Below the pieces are notes generated by a model, which saw only the letters and a program-made list of their open reading frames with translations, was not told the origin of the DNA and searched no databases. Position numbers and translations under genes: made by a program. Shown piece by piece: positions 3,741 through 41,050 of a stretch of 64,000 nt of DNA (position 1 is the stretch's first letter; each line of letters opens with the position of its first letter). This DNA comes from Cyanidioschyzon merolae (lineage: Eukaryota), in NCBI GenBank assembly GCA_000091205.1, contig AP006495.2; one strand, 5' to 3'.

Positions 3741-5594
3741 ATGGATGACGAAAGCGGCAGACTGCCGCAGTGCGCTGTCACTTGTACAGCGCTTCGTACG
3801 AGATCATTTTCGACTCGAGCAGTACAAGTCAGTGGTGGCTCTGGGGTTGCTTTTGTCACTGTCCGGCTTTTAGAGAGAATCCCTGGACGACGTACGTTGC
3901 TGGGCTCTCGCACGACGCTCGAGCGTGTCGTGCACGTACATCGTACATGCCCGGAACGTGCGAGGAATCAGTCTGCGCTCTGGATAATGCCTGCTTGCAT
4001 TGCCGCACGTTCTCGCTTCTGCTCGTCAACTCTCCAGTTGCAGTCGCGCAGACAGGTGCCGCTCACGAGACCGGCGTGCAGGTCACTGGCAGGCGGCACT
4101 TTTCGGAAATCATGGATCTGCAGCGTTTCGAATCGGGAATGTGAAAGCCACGGGACTACGAGCGCCCCGAATGTACCCACGGTGTACGTTCGCTCAGAAA
4201 AAGCGCACCTCTTCGCGCGACAAGTGCGGCCACTAATCTTTGGTAGAGCGATTGTAGTGCCTACCACGCGCCCGAACGGGACGTACGAGGCGCTCCAGCC
4301 GCGCACAGATGACCTGGTATGCGTTCGTTTGGCTACCTCTGGCCTAGAAGGGCAGGGAGGCCGCACCGATACGCCGGGTCCGGTCCTTGGCTATGGGTTT
4401 TACAATCCAGACTCCATGTATCGCGTGCGTTTGATCTGGCAGAATCGTTTGGACGGTGATTCCGTGCCGCTCCTGAAGTATCCAGATGGATCGTACCGCG
4501 TGGACCTGTTGCGTGTGCTCACGCGTCTTTTCACTGCAGCCTGGCGACTTCGAGAGAGACTGGGTCTCGTTGGTAGCGCCCATGCTGCGTGTCGTCTAAT
4601 CAACGGCGAGGGCGACCGCGTCAGCGGACTCTGTATTGACCTCTATGCACGGTACCTCGTTGTACAGAGCTCAGCGCGATGGGTCGAGCACCATCGACCC
4701 GTGATCGAGCAGGCGCTGCGCAACGTGACTAAGAATGCATACGAACTCGTGTGGCGGTCAAACTCGGATCGATTACGACAAGACGGTTTCGTGATGAGCG
4801 ACGACCCGAGTCGGGCTACAGCACCCGGGGCAGCGTCTACGATGACGCGCCGGGCATCGAGCACCGCTGCTACCTGGATTACAGAACACGGCCTCATGTA
4901 CGAAGTCGACATCATGCACGGCCAGAAAACAGGGCATTACTGCGACCAACGAGACAATCGACTCTTTATACGCCATCTTGTGCAAGAAGCGAGCATTCAG
5001 CGGGTCTTGGACCTCTGCACCTATACTGGCGGCTTTGCGCTGAACGCAGTGCTCGGCGGTGCGCTGCATGTCACTGCTGTAGACTCATCTGGCCAGGCCC
5101 TGATGCAAGCACATCGCAATGCAGAGCGCAATCAAGTATCATCGAGGCTGATTCTGGACAAGGAGCCGGGTATACCGGGTGAGTCGCCACCGACGCTATG
5201 GCTGGTGCGTGACGACGTGCAGCGTTTTTGTGAGCGCCTTGAATCACATATCGAGCATCACCCAGAGAGCACTCAACGCTACGATCTTGTGGTGCTGGAT
5301 CCGCCCAAACTGGCACCCACAGTGGAGAGCCTGCCCAGGGCTCGCCATCGGTATCGCAAAATGAATGCTGCAGCGTTGCGACTCGTTCGTTCGAGCGGCT
5401 TTCTCTTCACCTGCACGTGCTCTGCATCGATGACGCAAAGCGGTCAGTTCTCGGCGGTGCTCATGGAGGCTGCCCTCGACGCTGGAAGGAGGATAACCAT
5501 CTTGGCAGAGCGCGGTGCTGCTCTGGATCATGTCGTGTCGCCGGCCGCGCCAGAGGGTCGCTACCTCACCGCAATGCTCCTGGCCGTCGAATGA
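3741..5594 (+). CDS. RlmI-like rRNA (cytosine-C5) methyltransferase, PUA domain plus class I SAM-MTase, with a roughly 140 aa N-terminal extension that looks like an organellar presequence
   Basis: Real ATG at 3741. PUA-like segment: LVCVRLATSGLEGQ...PVLGYGFYNPDSMYRVRLI, compare RlmI GYYNPHSQIRVRL. SAM-MTase motifs: VLDLCTYTGGFALNA (motif I), YDLVVLDPPKLAP (motif IV). C-terminal FTCTCSASM...RYLTAMLLAV matches the RlmI/RlmK family. The N-terminal 140 aa are Arg/Ser-rich (MPACIAARSRFCSSTLQLQSRRQVPLTRPACRSLAGG). Confidence 0.8.
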   Translation: MDDESGRLPQCAVTCTALRTRSFSTRAVQVSGGSGVAFVTVRLLERIPGRRTLLGSRTTLERVVHVHRTCPERARNQSALWIMPACIAARSRFCSSTLQLQSRRQVPLTRPACRSLAGGTFRKSWICSVSNRECESHGTTSAPNVPTVYVRSEKAHLFARQVRPLIFGRAIVVPTTRPNGTYEALQPRTDDLVCVRLATSGLEGQGGRTDTPGPVLGYGFYNPDSMYRVRLIWQNRLDGDSVPLLKYPDGSYRVDLLRVLTRLFTAAWRLRERLGLVGSAHAACRLINGEGDRVSGLCIDLYARYLVVQSSARWVEHHRPVIEQALRNVTKNAYELVWRSNSDRLRQDGFVMSDDPSRATAPGAASTMTRRASSTAATWITEHGLMYEVDIMHGQKTGHYCDQRDNRLFIRHLVQEASIQRVLDLCTYTGGFALNAVLGGALHVTAVDSSGQALMQAHRNAERNQVSSRLILDKEPGIPGESPPTLWLVRDDVQRFCERLESHIEHHPESTQRYDLVVLDPPKLAPTVESLPRARHRYRKMNAAALRLVRSSGFLFTCTCSASMTQSGQFSAVLMEAALDAGRRITILAERGAALDHVVSPAAPEGRYLTAMLLAVE

Positions 5595-8036: not shown

Positions 8037-9700
8037 CTAGGCAGTCTGATGCAACGCAGCGGCTGGCTGATTCAAAAAAGAACTGGGTTGGCCGGTGGAA
8101 CTCAGGAGGCGCGACCAGGTTCGATCCCGGATATCCACTCGTTGTTGCTGCCCAGCGACGTCCTGCAGAGGGATCATCGCGTGTCGACCGTTGACAGGTC
8201 CCACAGTGAAGGACGTGAAACCAGCCATAGCGCCGTGGATGGCGCTATGCGCCAGCACTGCACAGTACATCTGATCGCTCGCCGTCGCTGGCACTGCGCG
8301 TACCATGTACGTTGGATCGATGTACTTCATGGAGACTTCAATATTCTCCCGATTGAAATACGCCTGCAACCGTTCTTTCAGGTACAGTCCGATGTCGTTA
8401 AACTTGCGATTTCCACTAGCGTCGATTTCGGTGCTTGCGGCGAGGAGATCCTGGCCGGCGCCTTCCGCCACCACGAGCAGAAAATGGCCATTTTCCTGCA
8501 ATCGTTTTTCCACAAAGGCTGCCAGGCCATTCGGGCCCTCAATCTCAAAGGGCAACTCGGGTATCAAGCAGCAGTCCACATCGCGATTCGCAAGCGAAGC
8601 GTACATCGCGATGAAGCCCGAGTTGCGACCCATGAGGCGTACGATACCGATGCCGTTTGGGAAACAGGTGGCCTCGACGTGCGCCGCATTCAGCGCACGT
8701 TGCGCTTCCTCCACTGCAGTCATGAACCCAAAACTGTGATCAATGACTGGAATATCATTGTCGATTGTTTTGGGAATGCTCGCAACACTCACGCGAAGAC
8801 GCTCACGCATGCACGCCTCCGCTATTGCGGCAGCGCCCCGAATGGTACCGTCGCCTCCGATAATGTACAACTGGTTGAGGCCGTGGCGACGGATCGCACC
8901 GAGGATCTGCTCGAGGTCGAAGCCGCCTCGCGACGATCCCAGGATCGTACCACCCAGTCGATGGATACCGTCCACGGTTCGCGGGGAGAGCTCCAGGTAC
9001 GGGGTGCCATTGTAGAAGCCGCGGTATCCGCCGCGTATTCCGACGATACTGCGTACATCGTACAGGTGCCATAGGCCATCCGTCAGCTCTCGAATAACTG
9101 TATTGATGCCAGGACAGAGGCCGCCGCAGGTTACGATGGCAGCACGAACCTCTTCGGGTCGAAACGCAATCCAGCTTCGTGGACCGGCCCGTAGATAGCG
9201 GGCAAAGTTGCGACGCTTGTCGGGATTAATGACGGTCTGCTTCAAAACAACGTCGTTTGGCGATGTGTCGTAGTTGTCGAGCCCACGGAACGAAACTTTC
9301 GACGTAGCCGGGTTGCATACGCGGGGTATTTGACTTGCCGGCAAAAAGTCCTGCAGTCGTGGTATGGATTTTAAATATCTACCGCTGTCGATATCCGAGA
9401 TAGAGAGGCTTTGGTAGATTTCTGGTGAGAGGATGAAATCCGCGTCGTTTTCGTCGAAAGCTTCCCGTGCGTCCGAGCTACCACCTGGCCTTCCGTGCGT
9501 ACAGCTTATCTGGAAAGCCGAACGCCCTCTTGCTGGTTGTCCGCTCTGCGCAGTGCGACGCTGCAGTCGCACGAAGCCCTGCTTACCGAGTTGCAACGGG
9601 GTGCGCAACTTCCACTGCAACGGTTTTCGACTCGCACCGCAAGTGGAGTTTTGCCCCGATCTACCGAAGAAGCAACTAGGAACAAAGTTTAGTGCGAGCA
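8037..9700 (-). CDS. PFK: ATP-dependent 6-phosphofructokinase, plant-type (PFK_A long clade)
   Basis: [60 protein letters not shown] matches plant PFK [47 protein letters not shown]. Also present are the GGDGT and PKTIDNDI active-site motifs and MGRNSGFIA. The track ORF extends to 9887 with a GTG start. Start placed at the first in-frame ATG near 9700 (MLALNF...), so the exact start is uncertain. Confidence 0.85.
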
Positions 9701-11770
9701 TTCGAATCACGTGGATGATCGATAAGAAAAACAGCGCCTGCGCACACACACACGCACCTCGGCGAAGCGTTAAGGTATGGATATGGTGCAGCGGTCGCGA
9801 TCGCAGCGTTCCCGTTCGAATCAACGGAAGGAGGCCACGATATTTTGCGCTCCTGGATTCGCATCCCGAAGCTGATCGTTTTTCCACTGAATTCTATGAC
9901 ACATCCCGTACGTGAACTTGAAAGCTTTCTCGCGGTGTATAGCAGGCAACCGAAATCAATATGCAATGTTTTGTATAGATTGTCGATGAATTGCCTGTAG
10001 GATATGTCCTGTACTGAACAGTGCGCGGAGGACTGCATTCCTCCTGAAGGTCTGCTATACCACAGCACTCTGATGATTCAGGAACACTGGACGGAAAGAA
10101 GCAGATACGTTCATCGCCAAAAACTGGTATTGATAAAGTGTGCCTGACGTCTATGGTAGAACACGACACTTGATCGCATTACGGAAAGCAGAAGCTACGA
10201 CAGTAGCCACCACATGTGTGGCTGTTTCTCAACAGTTTGTTCGTGCGGACCTGAAATCACTGGGATGTAAACACAAAACCAGAGTTCTAGTTCACGAACG
10301 GCCATCCTTCACCGAAATGGCACCTACAGCGTGCCTGGAACGTCGCGACCGGTATGACGCACAAAGACGACGGCTTGTTTTGCACCTCGGTGATACCTCC
10401 GCCCGAAGAACCGGTCGAAGCGTGTGTGCGTATTCGCGGAGACGGGAGCCCGTTATATGTACGATCGATCCCGAAGGGAGCTCGGAAACCACTTTGTCGA
10501 ATCATTGAAGACTTTTCTTTCGACTTCTGGCGACGTCCTTCTTTCGTACAATATCGCAGTTAAACATTCGCTTTGGGTTCCAGCTTTTGCTGATGTTATC
10601 AGGGTAGAGTTGCTCTTCATTCCTCTGTACGCTCCGTAGATCAACCAAAATGAAACTGTCTTTTGTAATGTGAAATGTAATGAACGCCACGCTGGATTTT
10701 TTCTTTAACAAAATTTTTACATGGACCATGGATCCTGGATTGCGGGATGGATCGCAGCATTCGGGAAAGTGTCCACATGCAGCAACCGATGTTCCAGCTC
10801 CATAACCCATACCTCTCCTCGGATATACTGGTCGTTGCATACGCTCGATCGTGCGCCAAGCCTGCCGTGAGCGCCCGCGGCCCGTATAGCAATATTCGAC
10901 AGCGTGTCGTCCTGAAATGCGCTCTGGCTACCTCCCTGGTCACCGCGGGCATCAGCGAGCGTCGGACGTTTCGAGCTCTACCCGTGGACCCCGTATCAGT
11001 TCGTCTGTACATCGAAGCAGAACCCACACCAGATTATTCAGTTATTATGCAGGTGCCCTAAAAAGCACTCCAAGGCTGTCCTGTCTCGGTTTGATTCCAG
11101 CGGTAGAGCGTCCAGAGCTGGAGCAGGCGCCAGCGATAGACTCGGAACCCAGAACTTCGAATCACACTACACGAGCCGCTGTTCAAGAGGGCTTGTCTGA
11201 GTAAGGATTGATGGAACCTTGGCAAGTTTACTGAGGAACGAAAGCCTGTTTGGCGGCTATGAGCGGTGTTTTGCGCGCGACGGGCGCATCCACGGAATCC
11301 AACGGGAAGCAGCGATCCCTCTACGTAGAGGACGAACCGAGAAGTCGCTGTCCGTTCCGCGCGCCGATCCCAAATCGGACCCTGTGCCAGCGCCGTCGTA
11401 GTGCCCGCGAAATGCGCAACACCGCAAACTCCTTGTGAAACCGTTCATCGGAAGGCTGTAGGTGACAAGGCTCGTGTGAGACCTTACCTGGCGCTTAGAT
11501 AGTGCGAGAACCTCTCTGCCCGCGGGCCGTGTTCGCAAGCTGCTTTCAAGGTCGCAGGCGCGTGCGCAGCTGGTACACACCGCTTTCCGCGGAACGCATC
11601 ACGCTCTCGCGCACGCTGCGTCACGGCGAAGTGCGGCAACGAATAAGGCGAAGGGCGTTGCTCTCAGCGCACGCCCTGCCTTGCTTTCGAGGCAAAATAC
11701 TGGAGATAGTTCTGAAGTTGTGGCTTTAGAAGAAAAATCTTCGCCGGGGCTGCACTCGCTTCCTAAATAT

Positions 11771-21562: not shown

Positions 21563-23415
21563 TCGCCGCGCTCTCCTGGACACCATCCAGCAGAGCGCTT
21601 CGCCGAGCGGCCTCGCGGTACGTACGGGAATCGACCTGTTGTCCAGCGTCATTGAGGGCGTCGCGTTTTTGTCTACCGTTTTGCTGGCGCGTCTGTACGC
21701 GGGTGTCGATGCTGAACCTATCCCTAATTTTGACGAGGGCAGCGTACACCGCAGCGGCTTTTGATAGGAGAGGTGGTGATAGCGAAATCGGGACGCATGG
21801 GTAACACGCTCTCTCATGTGTGACGCATGCTCATTCCGGAGCGAGACTGGTGGATGAAAGGCAGTTCCAATGCATAGACGTGTCGCACATTCTCTCTTGC
21901 CTGTCGTGTGTGAGCGTTGTGGACCGGAGAGCGCGCGGCGACGGGTGCCTCACATGAACATACATACACTGGAGCGCATCGACGCATACATGCAGGTACA
22001 CAAGCAAGCATCCTAGATGGAGTTGGCATTTGTTGACAGTATCCGGCTCCGAACTAACGAATGCTAGACTGGTTGTATGGTCGCGCGGGGTGCACCAATC
22101 CGAAAGCACCATTGTGAGGTTGTGTGGCGCTGCAAGAGCCTTCGCGTAATGCGCGCAGCAGACCGGCACTCGCAACATGGTGAACATCTGCCCCGTGCCT
22201 AGAGGTGCATCTTGCAGCGGCTCTTCGCGAAAAAAGAATGCGTGTATTCGGTTGTCTAGGTACAAGGGATCCATACGGTCTTGAACCCTTTGCTTTAGGA
22301 TCTCTTGCTACGCATACGCTCGATCACTTGAAGCAATCGACATCGGGGTGTTTCACATGGAGCTCATGAAATGGATCGAGGTTACGCAGTATGCCATCAA
22401 AGAGACTCAATCGGTTCGGTCAGCTGAAATTTTTCAGCCGCTCGCGAGCATTGACGAGTCTGATGCAGAACATAGATACGAGGCGCACGCTTCGCCATGG
22501 AAAGAAAACAACTCTGCTCGCAGACTGTTTGATCTCTGTACATTAGAAGTAAACTGGAGCTTCCCTGTGCACCTGGGGAGATCGGCTCCGTGCGTCGTCT
22601 GCACAGTAATCGACAAATATCCAGAGCATTGGATAACATGTTATCGACTCTCGAACGACACAATCTAGAGACTCGCTTTCGTATAGATATGTAGATACGC
22701 ACTATGGCAGTGAAACGATCAAGTCCCGCGATAACAGCGTAAATGAATACCCGCCTGCAGACGCCTCCCAGCCTTTTTTGACCAGCGGCTTCTTATCGGT
22801 TCGCGTTTCTCCTTGGACATTTCGATCCTGGGAGTTTGCCCAAGAAAATAGATCGCGTCAGCTCTTCGGATCTCATCTGCAACATCATACATCATCTCAT
22901 ATAGCTGGCGATGTTGAAGTCTGTATTCACGAGATCCGCGCGTTTATTGCCTCTGGTTGAACGCACCATTGCAAGGATTCCTCTAATTCTTGCGCTCTGT
23001 GCTACGCCAGTATCATCATTGTCCCACTGAGCAAACGCCTTCTCTCGCGTATCGCCCTTCATATCGCTCGCCTCCTTCCTCTTCGTCACTCGCTCTTCTT
23101 CGCTCGCTGGTCGGCGAGAACTGGATTTTGCATTGTTTGTTTCTGTCAGGGAGCGACGTCTGCCTCCAAGATCCCTGTCTTTCATCTTCATACCTCCCCC
23201 TTGGATTTTCTATTTCTTCACAAGAACGCACTCGGAACACATTTGCTATGCACTGCGATAAAGCATTTGGTTACACGCATCTGCCTATGGAACACAATTC
23301 AGGTGAAACACTTGAACACACCCAGGTGCACTGCCGGCACGCAACTACGCTGAAAGCGCACGTGGAGCTGCAGTCGACTTTCACTGGACCGAAGCTCCCT
23401 GGCGAGCCAACAAGC

Positions 23416-24828
23416 ATGCAGGGAACTTGTTCAGTAGCTACAGAACGTTACGGCTTCGTCGCACCGAACCAGTTGCTTCAGCAGAACAAGCGCTGGCGAA
23501 CGCAGGCTCTTCGGCGAGCAGGCGTCTGGGACGTTCCCGAGGCCGTTGTTTCACTGAGAACGTTTCGGGTTGCTCGGAACGCGGGCAGTGGGCGCGTGCC
23601 CCGGGCCGGCTTCATACGTCGAGTGCTGGCACTCTCTGTGCGACACGCTCGGGAAGGGCAAACGCTTGACCCCAGCGCTGCGCCACGGTCCTCTCTAGAG
23701 TCGGGGACCTGGTTCAAGCTTATTTGCGGAGCTTCGTTCAACGAGGTGACAGAGATTGCTCCGCTCACGAGAGACTATGCGCTAGCAGGTGCTGATTGCG
23801 TAGACTGCGCGGCCGAGCCAGCCGTTGTTCAAGCAGTCCTGGACGGACTAGACGAGGCGGAGCGTCGGTGGCGGTGGACCCTCACCAGTGACTCGTCTTG
23901 CGCCCGTCCGGATCGATTGACGAAGAGCTTCGCACGTCCATGGATCATGGTGTCAATTACCGACGATGAGATGGAACCGCACTTTCGAAAAGCGCGTGTG
24001 CACGTCGACGCGCACGCACCTTGCTGGCAATGCCCTGCTCCGTGTGCTCAACTTTGTCCAGCGGACGCCCTCACGTTGCCAGCGACGGCGAAAAACGTGA
24101 ACCAATTCCAAATATTCGGCATTTCGAGCACCCGATGTTATGGTTGTGGGCGCTGCATCCCCGCCTGTCCGTATCATTTGATTGAGACGCACTCGAGCAA
24201 GCAGACCCCACAGCAAGTGATGGCACTCGTGCGCAATTATCCCATCGATGCAGTCGAGGTTCACACGCGTGATCCGCTTAGCGAGTCGTTTGCTGCCCTC
24301 TGGTACAGCGAAATCGGGCGCACCCTGCGAGCGACGATGAAACTCATCGCGATTAGCATGCCGGAGCCCAATGACTGGAGTGTTTTCGAGTACATTGCGC
24401 GGCTCGTGTACGGGGCGCACGTCGACGAGTCGGGAACTGTGCAGGAGGCACCAGCGACGCCACCGAGTACGCCCATTCTTCTGTGGCAGTGTGATGGTAA
24501 GCCTATGACCGGTGATCTGGGTGCACCTGCCACCACTCGGGCGACCGTGCGCTATGCCACCAGCTTAGCGGAATACTTTCGAAGGAATCCGCACTTGCTT
24601 GCCGCACGGGGATTCATTCAGTGTGCTGGCGGTACCAATGCCCATACGATTCCGCTCCTTGAGGGCGTGGACGGGGTCCACGGGGTAGCTTACGGTGGCT
24701 ACGCGCGTCGACTCGTTGCAACCGGCGGCTATGAGGCTGCGCAACGGTTGGTACAGCAGGTGAAAACGCGCTTGGTATCTCCGAAAGCTGCCAATCGAGA
24801 AGCTGTGCAACCCGAAACGAGTCTGTAA
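23416..24828 (+). CDS. LdpA-like 4Fe-4S dicluster protein (cyanobacterial circadian-input LdpA family architecture) with an N-terminal transit-peptide-like extension
   Basis: Ferredoxin-type cluster motifs: CWQCPAPCAQLCPADA and CYGCGRCIPACPY. N-terminal domain: WFKLICGASFNEV...YALAGADCVDCAAEPAVVQAV. Blocks RPWIMVSITDDEMEPHFRKA, IDAVEVHT, LLWQCDGKPMTGDLG and QCAGGTNAHT are recalled from memory as characteristic of LdpA and were not checked against a database. The track ORF starts at 22990 with TTG. Internal ATGs are at about 23248 and 23416. The 90 aa upstream of the domain are Arg/Ser/Ala-rich and presequence-like. Confidence 0.55.
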   Translation: MQGTCSVATERYGFVAPNQLLQQNKRWRTQALRRAGVWDVPEAVVSLRTFRVARNAGSGRVPRAGFIRRVLALSVRHAREGQTLDPSAAPRSSLESGTWFKLICGASFNEVTEIAPLTRDYALAGADCVDCAAEPAVVQAVLDGLDEAERRWRWTLTSDSSCARPDRLTKSFARPWIMVSITDDEMEPHFRKARVHVDAHAPCWQCPAPCAQLCPADALTLPATAKNVNQFQIFGISSTRCYGCGRCIPACPYHLIETHSSKQTPQQVMALVRNYPIDAVEVHTRDPLSESFAALWYSEIGRTLRATMKLIAISMPEPNDWSVFEYIARLVYGAHVDESGTVQEAPATPPSTPILLWQCDGKPMTGDLGAPATTRATVRYATSLAEYFRRNPHLLAARGFIQCAGGTNAHTIPLLEGVDGVHGVAYGGYARRLVATGGYEAAQRLVQQVKTRLVSPKAANREAVQPETSL

Positions 24829-28369: not shown

Positions 28370-31075
28370 TCATGACGTGAAAACCTCACCAACAAAGGGC
28401 GCCGCAAATGCCATCCATCCGTGCAGATGCGCTGCCAGCAACGCTTCCCGCTGGGCAGCCGAGAGCACCATCGCAAACTCATCCAGATATCGTTCGAAAT
28501 CGGCAGCATCTCCCGCCTTAAATGTCGACTCGAGGTAACGTTGAAACAAGTGCTCCTTCTGATCGCTTCGGAGACGGAAATGGTGCAGGAAGAGCTTGAC
28601 CACACTACGGGCCGTCGCCTGCGCATGCGATGACGCCCTGGATGCTGCGGCCCAAGTCAGACTCAGAGCAGCACTGGGACGCCCCCACAAGTCCTCCGCT
28701 GTAAAATCGTGCAACATCGTCGTATGATTCGGTTTCCGCAGCACCATACGAAGACGACGGATTGGACGTGGCCGGTACCAAGAGCTGGGGCATTCCGCTT
28801 GTAGGCGCTCAACGCTTACGACGTCTCCATGGACGCCTCCGATTTCAATTCGTAGCGCTAGATGTGGAACCTCAAGGGTGTTCTGTCGACCGGTTACTAT
28901 GGTTACTTTCAAAATCGCTTCGTTATTTGTTCGAATCAAGCGCAGTACGATTGCACCCTCACCTAGAAAGACATTCAGGCTAGACAACTCGCCAAAGCGG
29001 CGAAAACAAGTATCCGTCGGCAATGCTGTATTCCATACTGCGGAATCGTCGAGCGCTATGCCATCCAGGTCCGTGCAGGGATGCATCGTCGCAATGCCCT
29101 CATCCCAAGCAATCCATTGCCGATGTGGAGGTAGACACACGCTAACGGAGCTGAGTTGCGTGGATGCTTCGCGAGGGCTCAAGAAAGGAGCCACAATGAC
29201 CGTGTTGCCCCCGAGGTAATACTGGTTGGTCCAGCTGTCAAAAGCAGGTGGTGTCCAGCTCCGGCGCTCTGGTGCTTCGCTCCAGGAGAAATGATACATG
29301 GGTGCACAAATTGGGATATGCGCTGGAATCGATGCGAAAAACAGAGCAAGCGAAGCGCGCAGACTCAGAATCTTTCGAGCAATAGCCTCGATTTCGAAAG
29401 AGCCGAATGCCCAGGGCGTTCGACTCATGAATGGATTCTTGCTGCAATGCAGGCGCAAGATCGGCGAAAAACAGCCCCACTGAAGCCAGCGCACGTAAAG
29501 CTCGGGATCCTCGTAGCCTCCGTAGTGGCCACCAATGTCGTGCGACCAGTAGTAGAACCCCACGTTTGCCGCCATAGCGGTGAACGCCGGTTGCATCGCT
29601 AGAGAATCCCATGTTGCCAGGGTATCCCCTGAGAATCCCACGGGATAGCGATGTCCACCAAGACCTGGCCATCGCGACAGGATTACCGGCAGGAGACGTC
29701 CGTTGCGGGAGCCGTTCGCGGCCCAGAGGTAGTGGTAGTGGTTCAGCAGGGGCATCGGATCGAACCCGTCCCTCTTGGAGACGCCTTGTTGCCAATCAAC
29801 CCACCAGAAATCGACACCGTGTTTGATCATTCGCATTTCATTCGCAGCAATCTGATTCTCCAACGCGTTCAGGACGACGCTAAAGTATGCCTGACGAAAA
29901 CGGCAATCCATGATGTGGAATGGAATGTGTTCGGTTTCATTGTGCTCGGGGTATGCGAGTGCTCGAGCCTGCAGGAACATATCCTCATTTGGAGCAATCC
30001 CGTCTGCGGGGTGCAAGTTCAGCGCTACCCGCACCGGACACGGTCTGCTGTGCAACCATGCCATCAGGGCCTCTGGATCCGGAAACAAAGCTCGATTCCA
30101 GCTAAATCCGGTCCATTGATCTGGCTGATGCCAGTCCATATCGATAACGAAGATGGACAAGTCTACTGCCGGTAGGCGACATGGCTGCGAGGCGTTCGCC
30201 TGGCCTCGGTGCGGCGCGCTTTCGGGTTCCGATCTGTTTTCAAAGCGAAGGACAAGGTCCATAATATCCTGCTGACGATAGGGCCAGTAGCGACAAAACC
30301 ACACACCGAAAACCTCTAAGGGTGGCTTTGGGGGTGCCCCTATATATGGAAAGAGGTACTTGCGGAGAATTTCCGGGAAGCTCTGTTCGGGCCCTTTTGG
30401 ACTGTGCTCAAACAGTACTAGGTCCAGGTGATCGTGTGATCCACCGAAAAAAGCCGCTCGTGTGACAAACCCCTGCTCGTCGAGGGGATCGCTCCAGTTT
30501 TTGCCCGTGAATACCAACGAGTTACTATCATTGATGATCGCAAGTCCGTCGGCACTAAAAAATCCCTCTCCGATACCGTTTTGACGAATATCGACGAGCT
30601 TTCGGATGTGGTACCAACCATCGCATTCATCGAGCGTTTGAATCGTTCCGCCCTGATTCTGTGGGTCCCGTACTGTACGGTATTTCATCCGAGGTGGATC
30701 ATTTTTCGACGCTGCTGCGGTTTCGGCTGCATCCGCAACGCCCGAGTCGACGTATTCTAGGACTGTTTTGCGGCACTGCTGCGTCATCGCCAGCAGGTTA
30801 CCGCTCCTTGTGTCCAGGCAAAGTCGAAGTTGATGGCTCTCCGCCAGTACAATGAGATCGTCCTTTGCATGCCGCTCTGAACCGAGAGCGCTTTCCGTAA
30901 TGTCTGGTGCGGTTCCCAGGGCGCCGCTCCGCCCTATCGTGTAGATGCGGGGCTCAGACCTGGTAGCACGAGAGATGAAGGCAAACGATGGGCTATCGAG
31001 GAACCGGCCCCGTTCGTTGTACTCTACGCGCAAGAGTCGCTCGTTGAGCACCGTTATCCGACAGTTTCCCTCCAT
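28370..31075 (-). CDS. Glycoside hydrolase family 31 protein, about 900 aa, divergent subfamily
   Basis: GH31 signature region GGHRYPVGFSGDTLATWDSLAMQPAFTAMAANVGFYYWSHDIGGH corresponds to GAA G.GRY.GHWTGD..S.W..L......L.F...G.P.VGADVCGF. The nucleophile region reads FWWVDWQQG instead of the canonical WIDMNE. A single uninterrupted ORF. The first ATG (MEGNC...) is 20 codons inside the track ORF. No signal peptide. Confidence 0.75.
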   Translation of the reverse strand: MEGNCRITVLNERLLRVEYNERGRFLDSPSFAFISRATRSEPRIYTIGRSGALGTAPDITESALGSERHAKDDLIVLAESHQLRLCLDTRSGNLLAMTQQCRKTVLEYVDSGVADAAETAAASKNDPPRMKYRTVRDPQNQGGTIQTLDECDGWYHIRKLVDIRQNGIGEGFFSADGLAIINDSNSLVFTGKNWSDPLDEQGFVTRAAFFGGSHDHLDLVLFEHSPKGPEQSFPEILRKYLFPYIGAPPKPPLEVFGVWFCRYWPYRQQDIMDLVLRFENRSEPESAPHRGQANASQPCRLPAVDLSIFVIDMDWHQPDQWTGFSWNRALFPDPEALMAWLHSRPCPVRVALNLHPADGIAPNEDMFLQARALAYPEHNETEHIPFHIMDCRFRQAYFSVVLNALENQIAANEMRMIKHGVDFWWVDWQQGVSKRDGFDPMPLLNHYHYLWAANGSRNGRLLPVILSRWPGLGGHRYPVGFSGDTLATWDSLAMQPAFTAMAANVGFYYWSHDIGGHYGGYEDPELYVRWLQWGCFSPILRLHCSKNPFMSRTPWAFGSFEIEAIARKILSLRASLALFFASIPAHIPICAPMYHFSWSEAPERRSWTPPAFDSWTNQYYLGGNTVIVAPFLSPREASTQLSSVSVCLPPHRQWIAWDEGIATMHPCTDLDGIALDDSAVWNTALPTDTCFRRFGELSSLNVFLGEGAIVLRLIRTNNEAILKVTIVTGRQNTLEVPHLALRIEIGGVHGDVVSVERLQAECPSSWYRPRPIRRLRMVLRKPNHTTMLHDFTAEDLWGRPSAALSLTWAAASRASSHAQATARSVVKLFLHHFRLRSDQKEHLFQRYLESTFKAGDAADFERYLDEFAMVLSAAQREALLAAHLHGWMAFAAPFVGEVFTS

Positions 31076-31649
31076 ATTCCCGATTGATCGATCATCAACA
31101 CAAGTGTTGCTGTTCGTTGTGTCTCTTTGCAGCAAGCGGGTGCGCAGGGCGCCTCTGGGAAAAACGCTCTAGCTAGATCCAGTACGCCGCTGCTTTCGCT
31201 CACCTACACGAACACCGTATTCTGTCTCAAGTAAAAGGCCCCGTCTCGCCTTCAGGCTGCCCAGACTGTAAGTACTAGCTGCAGCGGTGCAACAAAAGCA
31301 CTGTGCCGCTTGGAGTCCGGCAGACTGTCTCGACCAGCCGGCTCCAGAAGCACCGCAGTACCAGCGACAGCGCTTGCGAAGCGAACGAACGCGAGCGAAA
31401 CTGAGAACCTCCCCTGCGAATGCCCAGGGGTTACGCACTTATTCTAAACACCGAACCAACTTGTCTCTCCGGCGTCAAATCTGTTCGTAGCACAATGCTC
31501 AACATAAAAGCTTCGCCTTTTGCGGTAGACCTATGGATGCATACAGTGGAACGTGTTCCTTGATCGAAGCGGGGGTATGCAAGCCAAAATTTGTGACTGC
31601 TCCCTTGGGTTTTCTATGTTCTCCTACTGTCAACGTGTCGATCTCTCGT

Positions 31650-39748: not shown

Positions 39749-41050
39749 CTAATGCATCATCGCAGCAGCTTCTTGCATCACCAGTCTGGAGCCGGTGCCG
39801 CTGCCCACCACCACGGTGGAGGGGCCAGAGCTCGCCATCGGAGAGGCGACTGGACCCACTACCGTCGTTCCATCTGTAGAGGTCGTCGATCCACTCGAGG
39901 AAGATCCGTATGAGCTGCCGCTGCTGCCGGTAACGACGATGCCACCGCTGCTGCCGCTGCTGCCGCTGCTGCCGCTGCTGCCGGTAACGACGATGCCACC
40001 GCTGCTGCTGCTGCTGCTGCTGCTGCTTCCTGAAGACGGCTCCAGCTCAGTTTGAACCGGCTGCTGCTGGCCAGAGTTCTGGCTGTAAGGGTTGAACGGC
40101 TGCACCTGCTGCTTCGGGTAGTACTTCTTGTAATAACTCTTGTTGTAGTTGAACGGCCCAAAGACAGCAGTTGCGTTCCATCCGCTGGGAAAGTTGACCA
40201 CCGGATTCTTGTAGTAGCACCATGGAATATCCTGAGTCTGATACTTTTGCTGGAGGTACGGAGGCAGCAATATGGGATCGAAGCAGCAGTTACGCTCCAA
40301 GCACTGTTGCTCAGAAATGCCTGGGAAACCGCAGTTCTGGCGCTCCCGATAGGTGACGTTGCAGGTCATGAGCGGTTGATAGCAGAAGCCGTAGCTGTTG
40401 CCGAAGAAATTCACCTTCTGCTGCTTCTGCAGAGACTGACTGCTCGGGATAGAATCCTCATATGTCAGGTTCGGGTTCTGCTCCCAGCAGCAGCCCTGTG
40501 CCTCGCAATCCAGCTGGTTCATGTTATTCCAGCCGGAGTAGCATGGAACCTTGTAGTCGCCAACATTACAGCTCACATTGGGAAGTTGCTGCTGCGGTGG
40601 AGGCGAGTAGCCCACTGGAGCATAGCACCAGGGCCCGACCTCCGTCGGTGGAAGGGGATTCCAGCAGCCACCCTGCTGCAGACACTCTGCCGGAGTGATC
40701 TGCGGATAGCCGATCGCGACACGGTCGGCTGCGGAAATATTACAGATGGAGGTCGGCTCGTACGAGACGCAAACACCGTCTCCATTGTAGTTGAATCCCC
40801 AGTTCACCTGAGTCTGCCAGCAGCACTGGTAGTCGAAGCACTTCTGCTGGTCATTGCCAGCGTCACCACAGAGATAGATCGAGCAGGTTGTTCCAATATA
40901 GGTCGAGTTCAGGGAGCTCCACCGCTCCAGGTTGGAGTCCACCAGCATGGACGGCGCTGCGTTGACGCCGCCCATGGCGGCCACCATACACAGCAGCGCG
41001 AGCACTGCTGCTGCTGCCGCCGCTGAGATGAAAGAGAATAACTTACGCAT
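39749..41050 (-). CDS. Secreted multi-trefoil (P-domain) protein with a Ser/Gly/Thr-rich mucin-like C-terminal tail
   Basis: Real ATG. N-terminal signal peptide MRKLFSFISAAAAAAVLALLCMVAAMGGVNA. One module matches the PROSITE trefoil pattern exactly: RQNCGFPGISEQQCLERNCCFD, that is [KRH]-x2-C-x-[FY]-x3-[ST]-x3-C-x4-C-C-[FW]. Three further degenerate modules: KCFDYQCCWQT, GYPQITPAECLQQGGCWNP, CYSGWNNMNQLDCEAQGCCWEQ. The C-terminus is SSGSSSSSSSSSGGIVVTGSSGSSGSSGSSGGIVVTGSSGSS..., encoded by a (GCT/GCC)n microsatellite. Confidence 0.75.
   Translation of the reverse strand: MRKLFSFISAAAAAAVLALLCMVAAMGGVNAAPSMLVDSNLERWSSLNSTYIGTTCSIYLCGDAGNDQQKCFDYQCCWQTQVNWGFNYNGDGVCVSYEPTSICNISAADRVAIGYPQITPAECLQQGGCWNPLPPTEVGPWCYAPVGYSPPPQQQLPNVSCNVGDYKVPCYSGWNNMNQLDCEAQGCCWEQNPNLTYEDSIPSSQSLQKQQKVNFFGNSYGFCYQPLMTCNVTYRERQNCGFPGISEQQCLERNCCFDPILLPPYLQQKYQTQDIPWCYYKNPVVNFPSGWNATAVFGPFNYNKSYYKKYYPKQQVQPFNPYSQNSGQQQPVQTELEPSSGSSSSSSSSSGGIVVTGSSGSSGSSGSSGGIVVTGSSGSSYGSSSSGSTTSTDGTTVVGPVASPMASSGPSTVVVGSGTGSRLVMQEAAAMMH

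What the first reader, a model, noticed from the sequence alone, without database searches (positions are those of the whole stretch)
22990..24828. LdpA-like Fe-S redox-sensor protein encoded in a eukaryotic nuclear context with a presequence-like N-terminus
In cyanobacteria, LdpA is a redox-sensitive 4Fe-4S input component of the circadian clock. Here an LdpA-architecture ORF (ferredoxin dicluster motif plus N-terminal and C-terminal LdpA-type blocks) carries about 90-230 extra N-terminal residues rich in R/S/A. That is expected for a plastid or mitochondrial targeting peptide on an endosymbiont-derived nuclear gene. Two more bacterial-type genes with similar extensions lie in the window: RlmI-like at 3741 and a class I MTase at 44321. 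The plant-type PFK is also present. This points to a plastid-bearing lineage and possibly an organellar redox-sensing function. My family assignment relies on recalled LdpA motifs (WFKLICGAS, PHFRKA, LWQ.DGRPM.GD.G) and needs database confirmation.
Basis: partly seen in the sequence, partly recalled or inferred. Interest (0 to 1): 0.55.

Follow-up and report, generated by a model that had tools for sequence, protein, structure and literature searches.

The report
Red-alga nuclear LdpA Fe-S gene
This is the already-annotated nuclear gene of the red alga Cyanidioschyzon merolae for a cyanobacterium-derived LdpA-type iron-sulfur protein with an organelle-targeting extension; such genes are common in plants and algae, so it is ordinary, though nobody knows what it does in organisms that lack the cyanobacterial clock.

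Summary
ORF 22990..24828(+) exists and matches Pfam LdpA_C (9.8e-28) and LdpA_Fe-S-bd (3.5e-15). It keeps all eight cluster cysteines and the WFKLICGAS, HFRKA and GGTN blocks.

The window is Cyanidioschyzon merolae 10D nuclear DNA. The gene is already annotated as BAM81051.1 / XP_005537087.1 / UniProt M1UTE2, 526 aa, starting at nt 23248. The TTG at 22990 is only a mechanical ORF start.

Orthologs sit in the same gene order in Cyanidiococcus and Cyanidium. Homologs occur across streptophytes, and a 2023 preprint already counted 248 streptophyte reciprocal best hits.

All 27 named eukaryotic homologs carry N-terminal extensions: median 59 residues before the conserved Trp, against 15 in cyanobacteria. 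Here it is 154 from M87, and the last 88 residues are Arg/Ala-rich (net +10). No targeting predictor could be run, so plastid targeting is inferred.

An AlphaFold model (pLDDT 85) shows a phosphate-binding-type TIM barrel with an inserted 2x[4Fe-4S] domain. This looks like an enzyme.

In cyanobacteria, ldpA is followed by an AAA/R3H ATPase gene, probably ycf45, in 73 of 77 species. Together with retention in hosts I take (from general knowledge, untested) to lack Kai, this suggests a conserved function outside the clock.

The parts
22990..23247 (+). In-frame stretch upstream of the first ATG. It is not part of the protein and is probably 5' UTR or promoter.
   Evidence: No ATG lies in frame before 23248. 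GC1/2/3 is 0.53/0.53/0.47 and the codon score is about -0.02, as in non-coding DNA. The deposited protein starts at 23248.
23248..24828 (+). Coding sequence of the LdpA-family protein (526 aa plus stop), identical to BAM81051.1 / XP_005537087.1 / UniProt M1UTE2 of C. merolae 10D.
   Evidence: Exact sequence look-up. Pfam and NCBIfam matches.
23248..23415 (+). First part of the N-terminal extension (M87-S142). It is His-rich, not basic, and has Phe at +7 (MHCDKAFGY).
   Evidence: Net charge -2, R 2%. The in-frame codon score is 0.105 with both other frames at or below -0.1. This pattern occurs in 1.1% of non-coding and 30% of coding 168-nt windows. It aligns weakly with the N-termini of the Cyanidiococcus and Cyanidium orthologs.
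23416..23679 (+). Second part of the extension (M143-A230). This is the basic, Arg/Ala-rich presequence-like segment with GFVAP at +12 to +16, and M143 is an alternative start.
   Evidence: R 16%, A 12%, net +10. FV[AP] is rare in the window's proteins (6 in 8,887 aa), and 4 of the 6 lie in N-terminal extensions of LdpA, PFK and the MTase. No cyanobacterial homolog has a counterpart of this segment.
23680..24027 (+). N-terminal LdpA block, strands beta1-beta3 of the barrel. It carries WFKLICGAS, GADC(V/I)D and HFRKA.
   Evidence: Invariant columns W11, K13, C16, C40, D42, H101, F102, R103 and K104 in 119 sequences. Strands predicted at core residues 11-15, 40-44 and 88-94.
24028..24198 (+). 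Inserted ferredoxin-like 2x[4Fe-4S] domain. Motif 1 is C-x2-C-x3-C-x3-CP and motif 2 is C-x2-C-x2-C-x3-CP.
   Evidence: PF25160 at aa 347-403, plus Fer4_7 and Fer4_9. Seven of the eight cluster Cys are invariant columns. In Cyanidiales the first Cys is shifted by 3 positions, and other homologs have C-x3-C there. This is the only part of the protein with PDB sequence relatives.
24229..24762 (+). LdpA_C domain, strands beta4-beta8 of the barrel. It carries EIHT, WQxDGxPMxGD, Q(C/L)AGGTN and GVAYGGYAR. Cyanidiales-specific insertions lie before ILLWQ and at RNPHLLAARGF.
   Evidence: PF12617 at aa 414-591. Invariant residues sit at or just after the C-terminal ends of predicted strands. The insertions are visible in the alignment.

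Best explanation
The feature is the intact, already-annotated nuclear gene of Cyanidioschyzon merolae 10D for an LdpA-family iron-sulfur protein.

Shown by tools:
- It descends from the cyanobacterial ldpA lineage. All prokaryotic relatives found are cyanobacterial, apart from unclassified 'uncultured bacterium' bins and one bin labelled Sericytochromatia.
- It sits at a fixed chromosomal position between an M24 peptidase gene and a GH31 glycosidase gene in three Cyanidiales genera.
- It has an N-terminal extension that no cyanobacterial homolog has.
- The mature part keeps eight Cys for two [4Fe-4S] clusters.
- It is predicted with high confidence to be a (beta/alpha)8 barrel of the phosphate-binding type, with the ferredoxin-like dicluster domain inserted after the third strand.

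Inferred:
- The extension is an organellar presequence, most likely a plastid transit peptide, so the protein works in the plastid stroma.
- There the two clusters exchange electrons with a photosynthetic carrier (ferredoxin or something linked to the quinone pool). They pass them to, or gate, a ligand site at the C-terminal face of the barrel.
- That site is formed by the invariant Lys/Cys (beta1), Cys/Asp (beta2), Glu/His/Thr (beta4) and Gln/Asp (beta6), with the beta7/beta8 GGTN and G-x-Y-A-R phosphate-binding motifs.
- Red algae and plants lack KaiABC and CikA (general knowledge, not tested here). The conserved role therefore cannot be input to the Kai clock. It is more likely a redox-linked enzymatic or sensing step shared by cyanobacteria and plastids, possibly acting with the Ycf45-type AAA/R3H ATPase whose gene follows ldpA in nearly all cyanobacteria.
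For: Identity and family:
- Exact match to BAM81051.1 / XP_005537087.1.
- Both LdpA-specific Pfam domains score above their cut-offs.
- NCBIfam CircClkLdpA covers 317 of 360 profile positions.
- There are 58 invariant columns across 119 homologs, including the cluster Cys.

Nuclear and stable:
- The neighbours are eukaryotic genes.
- The M24 / LdpA / GH31 order is kept in Cyanidiococcus (L008) and Cyanidium (L009). In Cyanidium the ESCRT-II and PFK genes upstream and the Trefoil gene downstream are kept as well.
- Codon-position GC of the core (0.63/0.53/0.62) matches the neighbouring genes (0.64/0.48/0.62).
- The gene is present and intact in many hot-spring metagenome populations.

Cyanobacterial origin:
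- The best non-eukaryotic hits are cyanobacteria at 37-42% identity.
- 573 confirmed stretches were found in species genomes. Among the 80 best, every classified record is cyanobacterial except one Sericytochromatia-labelled bin; some are unclassified 'uncultured bacterium' bins.

Presequence:
- Residues before the conserved Trp: median 59 (range 48-179) in 27 named eukaryotic homologs, against 15 (range 8-24) in 20 cyanobacteria.
- Angiosperm N-termini look like classic chloroplast transit peptides: they start MALS, are about 20% Ser/Thr and have 0-2 acidic residues.
- The C. merolae M143-A230 segment has net charge +10.
- Phe-containing N-terminal motifs (AFG at +6 to +8, GFVAP) fit the Phe requirement described for glaucophyte and red-lineage plastid import (PMC2222254).

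Fold:
- AlphaFold2 gives pLDDT 85.3 and pTM 0.86 with an alternating strand/helix pattern.
- Foldseek finds only generic TIM barrels.

Non-clock role:
- The mechanism by which LdpA acts on CikA is explicitly unknown (PMC13421787).
- ldpA is retained in diatom endosymbiont cyanobacteria, which I understand to be non-photosynthetic.
- An AAA/R3H ATPase gene lies directly downstream on the same strand in 73 of 77 cyanobacterial species.
Against: - No localisation predictor or experiment was available, so plastid targeting is inferred.
- The basic part of the extension, with its amphipathic stretch GFIRRVLALSVRHAR (hydrophobic moment 0.54), would also suit a mitochondrial presequence.
- The first 56 residues of the annotated protein are acidic and His-rich, which is unusual for a transit peptide.
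- The protein scores far below the NCBIfam equivalog cut-off (263.7 against 450), so functional equivalence to S. elongatus LdpA is not supported.
- The enzyme-like reading rests on a predicted fold and on conservation patterns. No ligand is identified, and the nearest solved barrels share only 8-15% identity.
- The NJ tree does not resolve whether red-algal and plant genes share a single transfer: red plus plant monophyly appeared in 7 of 60 bootstraps.
- Gene linkage with the ycf45-like gene was shown only in cyanobacteria. I did not show that C. merolae has that partner.
Confidence: 0.75

Rival explanations
1. The protein is imported into the mitochondrion, or is dually targeted, rather than into the plastid.
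For: The M143-A230 segment is Arg-rich (16%), net +10, with only 11% Ser/Thr. It contains a strongly amphipathic stretch at aa 207-224 (hydrophobic moment 0.54), which is typical of mitochondrial presequences. No predictor could be run.
Against: - All prokaryotic relatives found are cyanobacterial or unclassified. Cyanobacterium-derived nuclear genes typically serve the plastid (general knowledge).
- Angiosperm orthologs have Ser/Thr-rich, acid-poor, MALS-type N-termini like chloroplast transit peptides.
- The Cyanidium ortholog starts MGFV, and C. merolae has Phe at +7 and a GFVAP motif. Both fit the Phe-dependent plastid import of the red and glaucophyte lineage.
Confidence: 0.15
2. Translation starts at M143 (nt 23416), and 23248-23415 is 5' UTR. 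This would give a 470-aa precursor with a typical basic presequence of about 83 residues and Phe at +14.
For: - M87-S142 is not presequence-like (net -2, 7 His, 1 Arg), whereas M143-A230 is.
- The ATG context at 23416 (agcATGc) resembles the cagcATGg context of two neighbouring annotated genes.
- An extension of 83 residues would be closer to the orthologs' roughly 82-96 residues beyond the cyanobacterial median.
Against: - The 168 nt before 23416 have coding-like codon statistics in this frame only (0.105 against -0.11 and -0.24). That pattern occurs in 1.1% of non-coding and 30% of coding windows.
- The segment aligns weakly with the orthologs' N-termini.
- The only database member called from M143 (P0129) comes from a contig that begins 53 nt upstream of that ATG, so that call is a truncation artefact.
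- Closely related strains differ too little (0-2 substitutions in this segment) to decide.
Confidence: 0.25
3. It acts as in Synechococcus elongatus: a redox sensor that feeds the state of the plastoquinone pool into a circadian oscillator, here that of the red alga or its plastid.
For: Family membership and the conserved dicluster domain. [quoted passage not shown]
Against: - The known partners (CikA, KaiA) are, to my knowledge, absent from eukaryotes. This is general knowledge and was not tested here.
- KaiA reciprocal best hits are confined to cyanobacteria, while LdpA has 248 in Streptophyta (10.1101/2023.09.04.556229).
- The protein is below the equivalog cut-off.
- Even in cyanobacteria, loss of ldpA only alters period length (PMC5520375), and the link to CikA is mechanistically unexplained.
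- The barrel with a conserved pocket points to a small-molecule site.
Confidence: 0.07
4. The gene is a cyanobacterial contaminant in the assembly, or a recent horizontal acquisition rather than an ancient endosymbiotic transfer.
For: The closest prokaryotic relatives are cyanobacteria. The NJ tree does not resolve red plus plant monophyly.
Against: - The gene is embedded between eukaryotic genes on an 867-kb chromosome.
- The same position is conserved in three genera whose proteins are 51-61% identical.
- Its codon usage is that of the host.
- It has a eukaryote-type N-terminal extension.
- It is only 37-42% identical to any cyanobacterial protein.
Confidence: 0.02

Closest known systems
LdpA (light-dependent period A) of Synechococcus elongatus PCC 7942 and other cyanobacteria (Pfam PF12617 + PF25160; NCBIfam NF045992)
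   Same: Same three-part architecture: an N-terminal WFKLICGAS/HFRKA block, an inserted 2x[4Fe-4S] domain, and LdpA_C with GGTN. All cluster Cys are present, and identity is 37-45% over the whole core.
   Different: - The gene is nuclear and carries an N-terminal extension of about 139 residues (83 from M143).
- The first cluster motif is C-x2-C instead of C-x3-C.
- There is a 20-30-residue insertion before LLWQ, a 6-residue insertion before GFIQCAGG, and the helix segment before the C-terminal LVxxVK is missing.
- The score is below the equivalog cut-off.
- There is no adjacent ycf45-like or ndhN gene.
- The host lacks the Kai/CikA partners (general knowledge, not tested).
Uncharacterised nuclear LdpA homologs of streptophytes (e.g. 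Marchantia MPTK1_3g01080, Chara CBR_g50285, angiosperm '4Fe-4S ferredoxin-type domain-containing protein')
   Same: Nuclear genes with the same domain set and an N-terminal presequence-like extension. Identity is 34-39%. Their existence was already noted as 248 streptophyte reciprocal best hits (10.1101/2023.09.04.556229).
   Different: The plant proteins form their own fully supported clade (60 of 60 bootstraps). They keep the cyanobacterial C-x3-C spacing and the C-terminal helix. Whether they and the Cyanidiales genes come from a single transfer is unresolved.
Cyanidiococcus yangmingshanensis F1559_003328 and Cyanidium caldarium CDCA07G2142
   Same: True orthologs: 61% and 51% identity, the same flanking genes, and the same lineage-specific insertions and Cys spacing.
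   Different: Their extensions are shorter, with the conserved Trp at residues 111 and 97 against 155 in C. merolae. Cyanidium begins with MGFV.
Phosphate-binding (beta/alpha)8 barrels (PdxJ, IGPS/TrpC, HPS, TrpA, ThiE, RPE)
   Different: Identity is only 8-15%, there are no Pfam or sequence hits, and none of them carries an inserted dicluster ferredoxin domain. This is a resemblance of fold, not family membership.
Dihydropyrimidine dehydrogenase / PreA-type barrels with 2x[4Fe-4S] domains, and the CdhD/AcsD corrinoid Fe-S protein
   Same: The general idea of a TIM barrel combined with ferredoxin-type clusters.

Membership tests
LdpA family (Pfam LdpA_C / LdpA_Fe-S-bd) | LdpA_C domain (PF12617) above the gathering score | tested here: met
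   97.4 bits against a cut-off of 22.2, E 9.8e-28, aa 414-591 matching profile positions 2-162 of 184.
LdpA family (Pfam LdpA_C / LdpA_Fe-S-bd) | LdpA-specific Fe-S cluster-binding domain (PF25160) above the gathering score | tested here: met
   56 bits against a cut-off of 27.6, E 3.5e-15, aa 347-403.
LdpA family (Pfam LdpA_C / LdpA_Fe-S-bd) | Eight cysteines able to ligate two [4Fe-4S] clusters | tested here: met
   The motifs are C-x2-C-x3-C-x3-CP and C-x2-C-x2-C-x3-CP. Seven Cys are invariant columns, and the first is shifted by three positions in Cyanidiales. Actual cluster binding was not tested.
LdpA family (Pfam LdpA_C / LdpA_Fe-S-bd) | Conserved N-terminal block (WFKLICGAS, GADC-x-D, HFRKA) and GGTN motif | tested here: met
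   All are invariant in the 119-sequence alignment and present in the window protein.
Circadian clock protein LdpA, functional equivalog (NCBIfam NF045992) | Score at or above the curated equivalog cut-off | tested here: not met
   263.7 bits against a cut-off of 450. The protein is a homolog, but functional equivalence is not supported.
Circadian clock protein LdpA, functional equivalog (NCBIfam NF045992) | Acts with CikA/KaiA and modulates the circadian period according to light or redox state | not testable with these tools
   This needs genetics and biochemistry. Reviews describe these roles only for S. elongatus. KaiA reciprocal best hits are confined to cyanobacteria.
Circadian clock protein LdpA, functional equivalog (NCBIfam NF045992) | Typical cyanobacterial gene context, with an AAA/R3H ycf45-like gene directly downstream | tested here: not met
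   The context holds in 73 of 77 cyanobacterial species. In the window the neighbours are an M24 peptidase and GH31. This is expected for a gene transferred to the nucleus.
Nuclear gene of endosymbiotic (cyanobacterial) origin for an imported organellar protein | Prokaryotic relatives are cyanobacterial | tested here: met
   All named prokaryotic hits are cyanobacteria. There were 573 confirmed stretches in species genomes. Among the 80 best, classified records are cyanobacterial except one Sericytochromatia-labelled bin, and some are unclassified 'uncultured bacterium' bins. PMC5520375 found LdpA only in cyanobacteria among 11,264 prokaryotic genomes.
Nuclear gene of endosymbiotic (cyanobacterial) origin for an imported organellar protein | Located in nuclear DNA among host genes | tested here: met
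   Exact matches to six C. merolae 10D nuclear proteins on one chromosome. Synteny is conserved in two other genera.
Nuclear gene of endosymbiotic (cyanobacterial) origin for an imported organellar protein | N-terminal extension relative to the bacterial homologs | tested here: met
   154 residues (98 from M143) before the conserved Trp, against a median of 15 (range 8-24) in cyanobacteria.
Nuclear gene of endosymbiotic (cyanobacterial) origin for an imported organellar protein | Extension recognised as a transit peptide by a dedicated predictor, or localisation shown experimentally | not testable with these tools
   No TargetP, ChloroP, HECTAR or PredAlgo was available. Only composition and motifs were examined.
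Nuclear gene of endosymbiotic (cyanobacterial) origin for an imported organellar protein | Monophyly of the eukaryotic copies, nested in or sister to cyanobacteria | tested here: inconclusive
   In the NJ bootstrap, Cyanidiales were recovered 60 of 60 times, the plant clade 60 of 60 times, and red plus plants only 7 of 60 times.

The most novel reading that the evidence does not exclude
LdpA is not primarily a clock protein. On this reading it is a conserved redox-driven TIM-barrel enzyme, or small-molecule sensor, of cyanobacteria and plastids. It would work together with the Ycf45-type AAA/R3H ATPase, whose gene follows ldpA in about 95% of the cyanobacterial species sampled, and sometimes with NDH-1 (ndhN lies upstream in about a quarter). 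The circadian period phenotype in S. elongatus would then be a secondary consequence. The C. merolae gene, in a genetically tractable host that I take to lack Kai, would be the place to find the real function.
Probability: 0.35. Interest if true: 0.6.

Novelty: already known. Interest (0 to 1): 0.27.

Why it matters
As a finding it adds little. The gene is a deposited, conserved 'hypothetical protein' of a model red alga. Its LdpA domains are already precomputed in public resources, and plant LdpA homologs have been counted in a preprint.

The open question it points to is more interesting. A protein known only as an input component of the cyanobacterial Kai clock has been kept for over a billion years in plastid-bearing eukaryotes that have no Kai clock, and also in diatom endosymbiont cyanobacteria, which I understand to be non-photosynthetic. 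Clock reviews still describe its mechanism as unknown. Surveys limited to prokaryotes call it cyanobacteria-specific.

Three observations made here suggest a biochemical role independent of the clock:
- the predicted barrel with an inserted dicluster domain;
- a conserved pocket with a phosphate-binding signature;
- the near-universal ldpA / ycf45-like gene pair in cyanobacteria.

C. merolae can be modified by homologous recombination, so this could be tested directly there.

Tried and rejected
1. Choosing the start codon from close strains. Seven metagenome or Logan loci are less than 1% divergent, with 0-2 substitutions in 23248-23415, so this was uninformative.
2. Treating the 470-aa database member P0129 as evidence for an M143 start. 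Its contig begins 53 nt upstream of that ATG, so the call is a truncation artefact.
3. NJ phylogeny with 60 bootstraps. The Cyanidiales and plant clades are solid, but their relationship to each other and to cyanobacteria is unresolved. No ML tool was available.
4. PDB sequence search. Only the ferredoxin insert has relatives, and no LdpA structure exists.
5. Foldseek against the PDB. It found only generic TIM barrels at E of about 1e-4.
6. AFDB50 fold search. The library was not installed.
7. The original LdpA papers (PMC142860, PMC556408) are not held in the library. The algal plastid Fe-S inventory (PMC8003979) and the GreenCut paper (PMC2947710) do not mention this protein.
8. I could not identify the Arabidopsis ortholog or any localisation data for a plant homolog.
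9. DPD-like or CdhD-like assignment, contamination and pseudogene readings were all considered and rejected.
10. I did not verify that the cyanobacterial AAA/R3H neighbour is ycf45 by name. The name rests on my memory, supported by the matching size of Synechocystis ycf45 (slr0692, 1770 nt). NCBIfam gives only a distant SpoIIIAA-type match.

Full report
**1. The observation**

- Pfam-A assigns LdpA_C (PF12617; E 9.8e-28; 97.4 bits against a cut-off of 22.2; aa 414-591). It also assigns the LdpA-specific Fe-S-binding domain (PF25160; E 3.5e-15; aa 347-403), plus generic Fer4 dicluster families.
- NCBIfam's circadian clock protein LdpA model (NF045992) aligns aa 231-578 to profile positions 4-320 of 360 (E 2.4e-78). 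The score of 263.7 bits is well below the equivalog cut-off of 450.
- All other NCBIfam hits are weak matches of the ferredoxin insert.

The family assignment is therefore confirmed at the homology level. The refutation conditions (no LdpA_C hit; DPD-like or CdhD-like family) are not met.

**2. Where the window comes from**

Six window proteins were found letter for letter in the public collection as Cyanidioschyzon merolae strain 10D entries, all on one 866,983-bp record.

- The LdpA-like protein from the ATG at 23248 is BAM81051.1 / XP_005537087.1 / UniProt M1UTE2. It is annotated as 'hypothetical protein, conserved' and '4Fe-4S ferredoxin-type domain-containing protein', 526 aa.
- The forms starting at the second and third in-frame ATGs are not on record.
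- The neighbours are ordinary eukaryotic nuclear genes: TIP41, ESCRT-II, PFK, M24 peptidase, GH31, a Trefoil-domain protein, methylthioribulose-1-phosphate dehydratase, RING/WD40, SAP and RRM proteins.
- GC is about 0.50-0.59 throughout.

The gene itself is an existing database entry.

**3. Relatives**

The homolog search returned 557 proteins.

- After near-identical environmental variants, the closest are Cyanidiococcus yangmingshanensis (61%, 485 aa) and Cyanidium caldarium (51%, 456 aa).
- Next come streptophyte proteins (Marchantia, Riccia, ferns, Chara, mosses, many angiosperms; 34-39%), interleaved with cyanobacterial LdpA (37-42%).
- The gene order M24 peptidase (-) / LdpA (+) / GH31 (-) is the same in Cyanidiococcus and Cyanidium. 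In Cyanidium the ESCRT-II and PFK genes upstream and a Trefoil gene downstream are also collinear with the window.
- Codon-position GC of the LdpA core (0.63/0.53/0.62) equals that of neighbouring genes (0.64/0.48/0.62).

Contamination or recent transfer is thus excluded.

A scan of one genome per prokaryotic species found 573 confirmed stretches. Among the 80 best, every classified record is cyanobacterial except one bin labelled Sericytochromatia; some are unclassified 'uncultured bacterium' bins.

In an NJ tree with 60 bootstraps:
- Cyanidiales were recovered 60 of 60 times.
- A plant clade (25 named plus 8 unnamed sequences) was recovered 60 of 60 times.
- Red plus plant monophyly appeared in only 7 of 60 replicates.

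A single endosymbiotic transfer is therefore plausible but not shown.

**4. Prior knowledge**

- A survey of 11,264 prokaryotic genomes called LdpA exclusive to cyanobacteria (PMC5520375). That survey did not include eukaryotes.
- The CATHI preprint (10.1101/2023.09.04.556229) reports 268 non-cyanobacterial reciprocal best hits for LdpA. Of these, 248 are in Streptophyta, from 68 genera (88% of streptophytes surveyed). It calls this an intriguing pattern.
- I found no paper on the function or localisation of any eukaryotic homolog.
- Inventories of algal plastid Fe-S proteins and of GreenCut proteins do not mention it.
- Reviews state that LdpA's clusters sense plastoquinone-pool redox state and modulate CikA abundance in S. 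elongatus, and that how it does so is unknown.

**5. The N-terminal extension and the start codon**

The conserved Trp of WFKLICGAS is preceded by a median of 15 residues (range 8-24) in 20 named cyanobacterial proteins. In 27 named eukaryotic homologs the median is 59 (range 48-179). In C. merolae it is 154 from M87 or 98 from M143.

Angiosperm extensions have the classic look of chloroplast transit peptides: they start MALS, are about 20% Ser/Thr, have 0-2 acidic residues and are net positive.

In C. merolae the extension has two parts:
- M87-S142 is His-rich, with one Arg and net charge -2.
- M143-A230 is 16% Arg and 12% Ala, with net charge +10.

Which ATG is used?
- Closely related environmental strains are too similar to tell.
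- The one database member called from M143 is a truncated contig.
- Codon statistics favour the annotated start. The segment 23248-23415 scores 0.105 in frame, against -0.11 and -0.24 out of frame, like the core (0.111). The stretch 22990-23247 is non-coding-like.
- That signature occurs in 1.1% of 8,566 non-coding windows and in 30% of coding windows from genes not used for training. This is a ratio of about 27 to 1.

I therefore accept 23248 as the start, with about 25% left for 23416.

Both forms offer a Phe near the N-terminus: AFG at +6 to +8 from M87, and GFVAP at +12 to +16 from M143. The Cyanidium ortholog starts MGFV. An N-terminal Phe is described as a requirement for import into glaucophyte and red-lineage plastids (PMC2222254).

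FV[AP] occurs only 6 times in 8,887 residues of the window's large ORFs. Four of the six lie in the N-terminal extensions of LdpA, the PFK (MLALNFVPS) and the class I methyltransferase. This is suggestive, but the sample is small.

No targeting predictor was available. An amphipathic Arg-rich stretch (aa 207-224, hydrophobic moment 0.54) leaves a mitochondrial reading open. I put it at about 15%.

**6. Anatomy of the mature protein**

All eight cluster cysteines are present.
- Cyanidiales have C-x2-C-x3-C-x3-CP where cyanobacteria and plants have C-x3-C-x3-C-x3-CP.
- The second motif is the canonical C-x2-C-x2-C-x3-CP.

Further invariant residues include Lys and Cys in WFKLICGAS, Cys and Asp in GADC-x-D, HFRK, E-x-HT, WQ-x-DG-x-x-M-x-GD, Q-x-AGGTN and G-x-A-x-G-x-x-x-R.

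Cyanidiales also have a 20-30-residue insertion before LLWQ and a 6-residue insertion before GFIQCAGG. They lack a helix segment near the C-terminus.

No solved structure shares sequence similarity with the scaffold.

AlphaFold2 with the 119-sequence alignment gives pLDDT 85.3 and pTM 0.86. The model has alternating strands and helices, interrupted after the third strand by the ferredoxin-like domain (core residues about 107-168).

The invariant residues fall at or just after the C-terminal ends of the predicted strands. The Gly-rich GGTN and G-x-Y-A-R motifs follow strands 7 and 8, which is where such barrels bind substrate phosphate. This last point is my inference plus established knowledge of TIM barrels.

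The protein therefore looks like an enzyme, or a small-molecule sensor, with a built-in two-cluster electron wire. It does not look like a simple ferredoxin.

**7. Context in cyanobacteria (outside the window)**

In four hand-picked genomes, ldpA is followed on the same strand by a gene of about 600 aa with Spore_III_AA/AAA, PF25516 and R3H domains. The genomes are Leptolyngbya O-77, the Rhopalodia endosymbiont, Calothrix and Thermostichus. In two of them ldpA is preceded by ndhN.

Across the 80 species loci:
- The ATPase gene lies directly downstream (gap 19-619 bp) in 73 of the 77 loci with enough sequence.
- ndhN lies directly upstream in 17 of 74.

From memory this ATPase is Ycf45. That fits Synechocystis ycf45 (slr0692, 1770 nt), which acquired three independent mutations, including frameshifts, in a fluctuating-light evolution experiment (PMC13139465). 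ycf45 is listed among plastid-genome genes of red algae, diatoms and haptophytes. I did not verify the name by homology; NCBIfam gives only a distant SpoIIIAA-type match. I also did not show that C. merolae has the partner.

**8. Explanation and verdict**

The best-supported reading is a nuclear gene of cyanobacterial ancestry whose product is imported, most likely into the plastid. It acts there as a redox-linked Fe-S barrel protein.

By general knowledge, the host lacks KaiABC and CikA; I did not test this. The protein scores below the equivalog threshold. I therefore do not file it as a functional equivalent of the clock protein, only as a family member.

The most novel reading not excluded is that LdpA's conserved role, in cyanobacteria as well, is a non-clock biochemical one coupled to Ycf45.

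However, they concern a gene that is already deposited and a distribution that is already reported. Novelty is 'already known', and interest is low to moderate (0.27). Most of that interest comes from the function being unknown and testable in C. merolae.

Noticed in passing
Loci L010-L093 (cyanobacterial genomes; e.g. L013:6027-7928, L010:6544-8439): ldpA is followed directly, on the same strand, by an AAA/R3H ATPase gene of about 600 aa (Spore_III_AA + PF25516 + R3H; probably ycf45). This holds in 4 of 4 hand-picked genomes and in 73 of 77 species loci. The pair looks like a conserved operon.
   Followed up: partly
L010:4210-4707, L013:4469-4912 and 17 of 74 loci among L014-L093: ndhN, which encodes a subunit of the photosynthetic NDH-1 complex, lies directly upstream of ldpA on the same strand in about a quarter of cyanobacterial species. 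These include the early-branching Thermostichus. C. merolae is listed as lacking NDH.
   Followed up: partly
window 8037-9887 (-): This is a PRK06830-type ATP-dependent phosphofructokinase (506 bits, cut-off 400). The homology starts at about aa 164 of the protein read from the first ATG. The N-terminus reads MLALNFVPS, with Phe at +6, so it is a candidate plastid-targeted PFK.
   Followed up: partly
window 3741-5594 (+) and 44321-45841 (-): The RlmI-type 23S rRNA C5-methyltransferase homolog (homology from about aa 261 of 617) has a long, basic N-terminal extension: net +13 in the first 120 residues. The class I methyltransferase (domain at aa 155-256 of 506) has one too, at net +9, and carries two FV[AP] motifs at residues 22 and 51. 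Both are annotated C. merolae proteins, BAM81045 and BAM81057.
   Followed up: partly
window 6461-41050 compared with L009 (Cyanidium caldarium): The gene order ESCRT-II, PFK, unknown, M24 peptidase, LdpA, GH31, unknown, Trefoil-domain protein is collinear between C. merolae and Cyanidium. It spans about 35 kb in the window and about 13 kb in Cyanidium. The C. merolae intergenic regions are therefore much longer; for example, there is no ORF of 200 aa or more between about 13000 and 19900.
   Followed up: no
window 39749-41050 (-): This protein has two Trefoil (P-type) domains (E 1.2e-26), which is an unusual family for a red alga. It lies about 9 kb from the GH31 glycosidase gene at 28370-31135, and a Trefoil gene is also present at the end of the Cyanidium locus. 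The exact sequence from the first ATG is not in the protein collection, so the deposited gene model may differ.
   Followed up: no
L001-L007, L094 (hot-spring metagenomes, JGI 3300050354/355/360/385, 3300005573, 3300053682; ENA ERZ27247235; SRR29605864): Environmental Cyanidioschyzon populations carry this locus at less than 1% nucleotide divergence from strain 10D. The core coding region is the least variable part, at 0.17-0.35% against 0.5-1.5% in the flanks.
   Followed up: partly
L044 (DATNQT010000267.1): A metagenome bin labelled Candidatus Sericytochromatia, a non-photosynthetic sister group of cyanobacteria, carries ldpA with the ycf45-like gene downstream and ndhN 2.3 kb upstream. Either the bin is mislabelled, or the module predates oxygenic cyanobacteria.
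   Followed up: no
Hit list; L011, L015, L066: The endosymbiont cyanobacteria (spheroid bodies) of Rhopalodia and Epithemia diatoms, which I understand to be non-photosynthetic, retain both ldpA and the downstream ATPase gene. This argues that the function does not depend on a light-driven plastoquinone pool.
   Followed up: partly
Hit list: No Galdieria, other red-algal, glaucophyte, chlorophyte or secondary-alga homolog appears among the best 120 hits, although Cyanidiales and streptophytes do. The list is truncated, so absence is not shown. The distribution within algae remains open.
   Followed up: no
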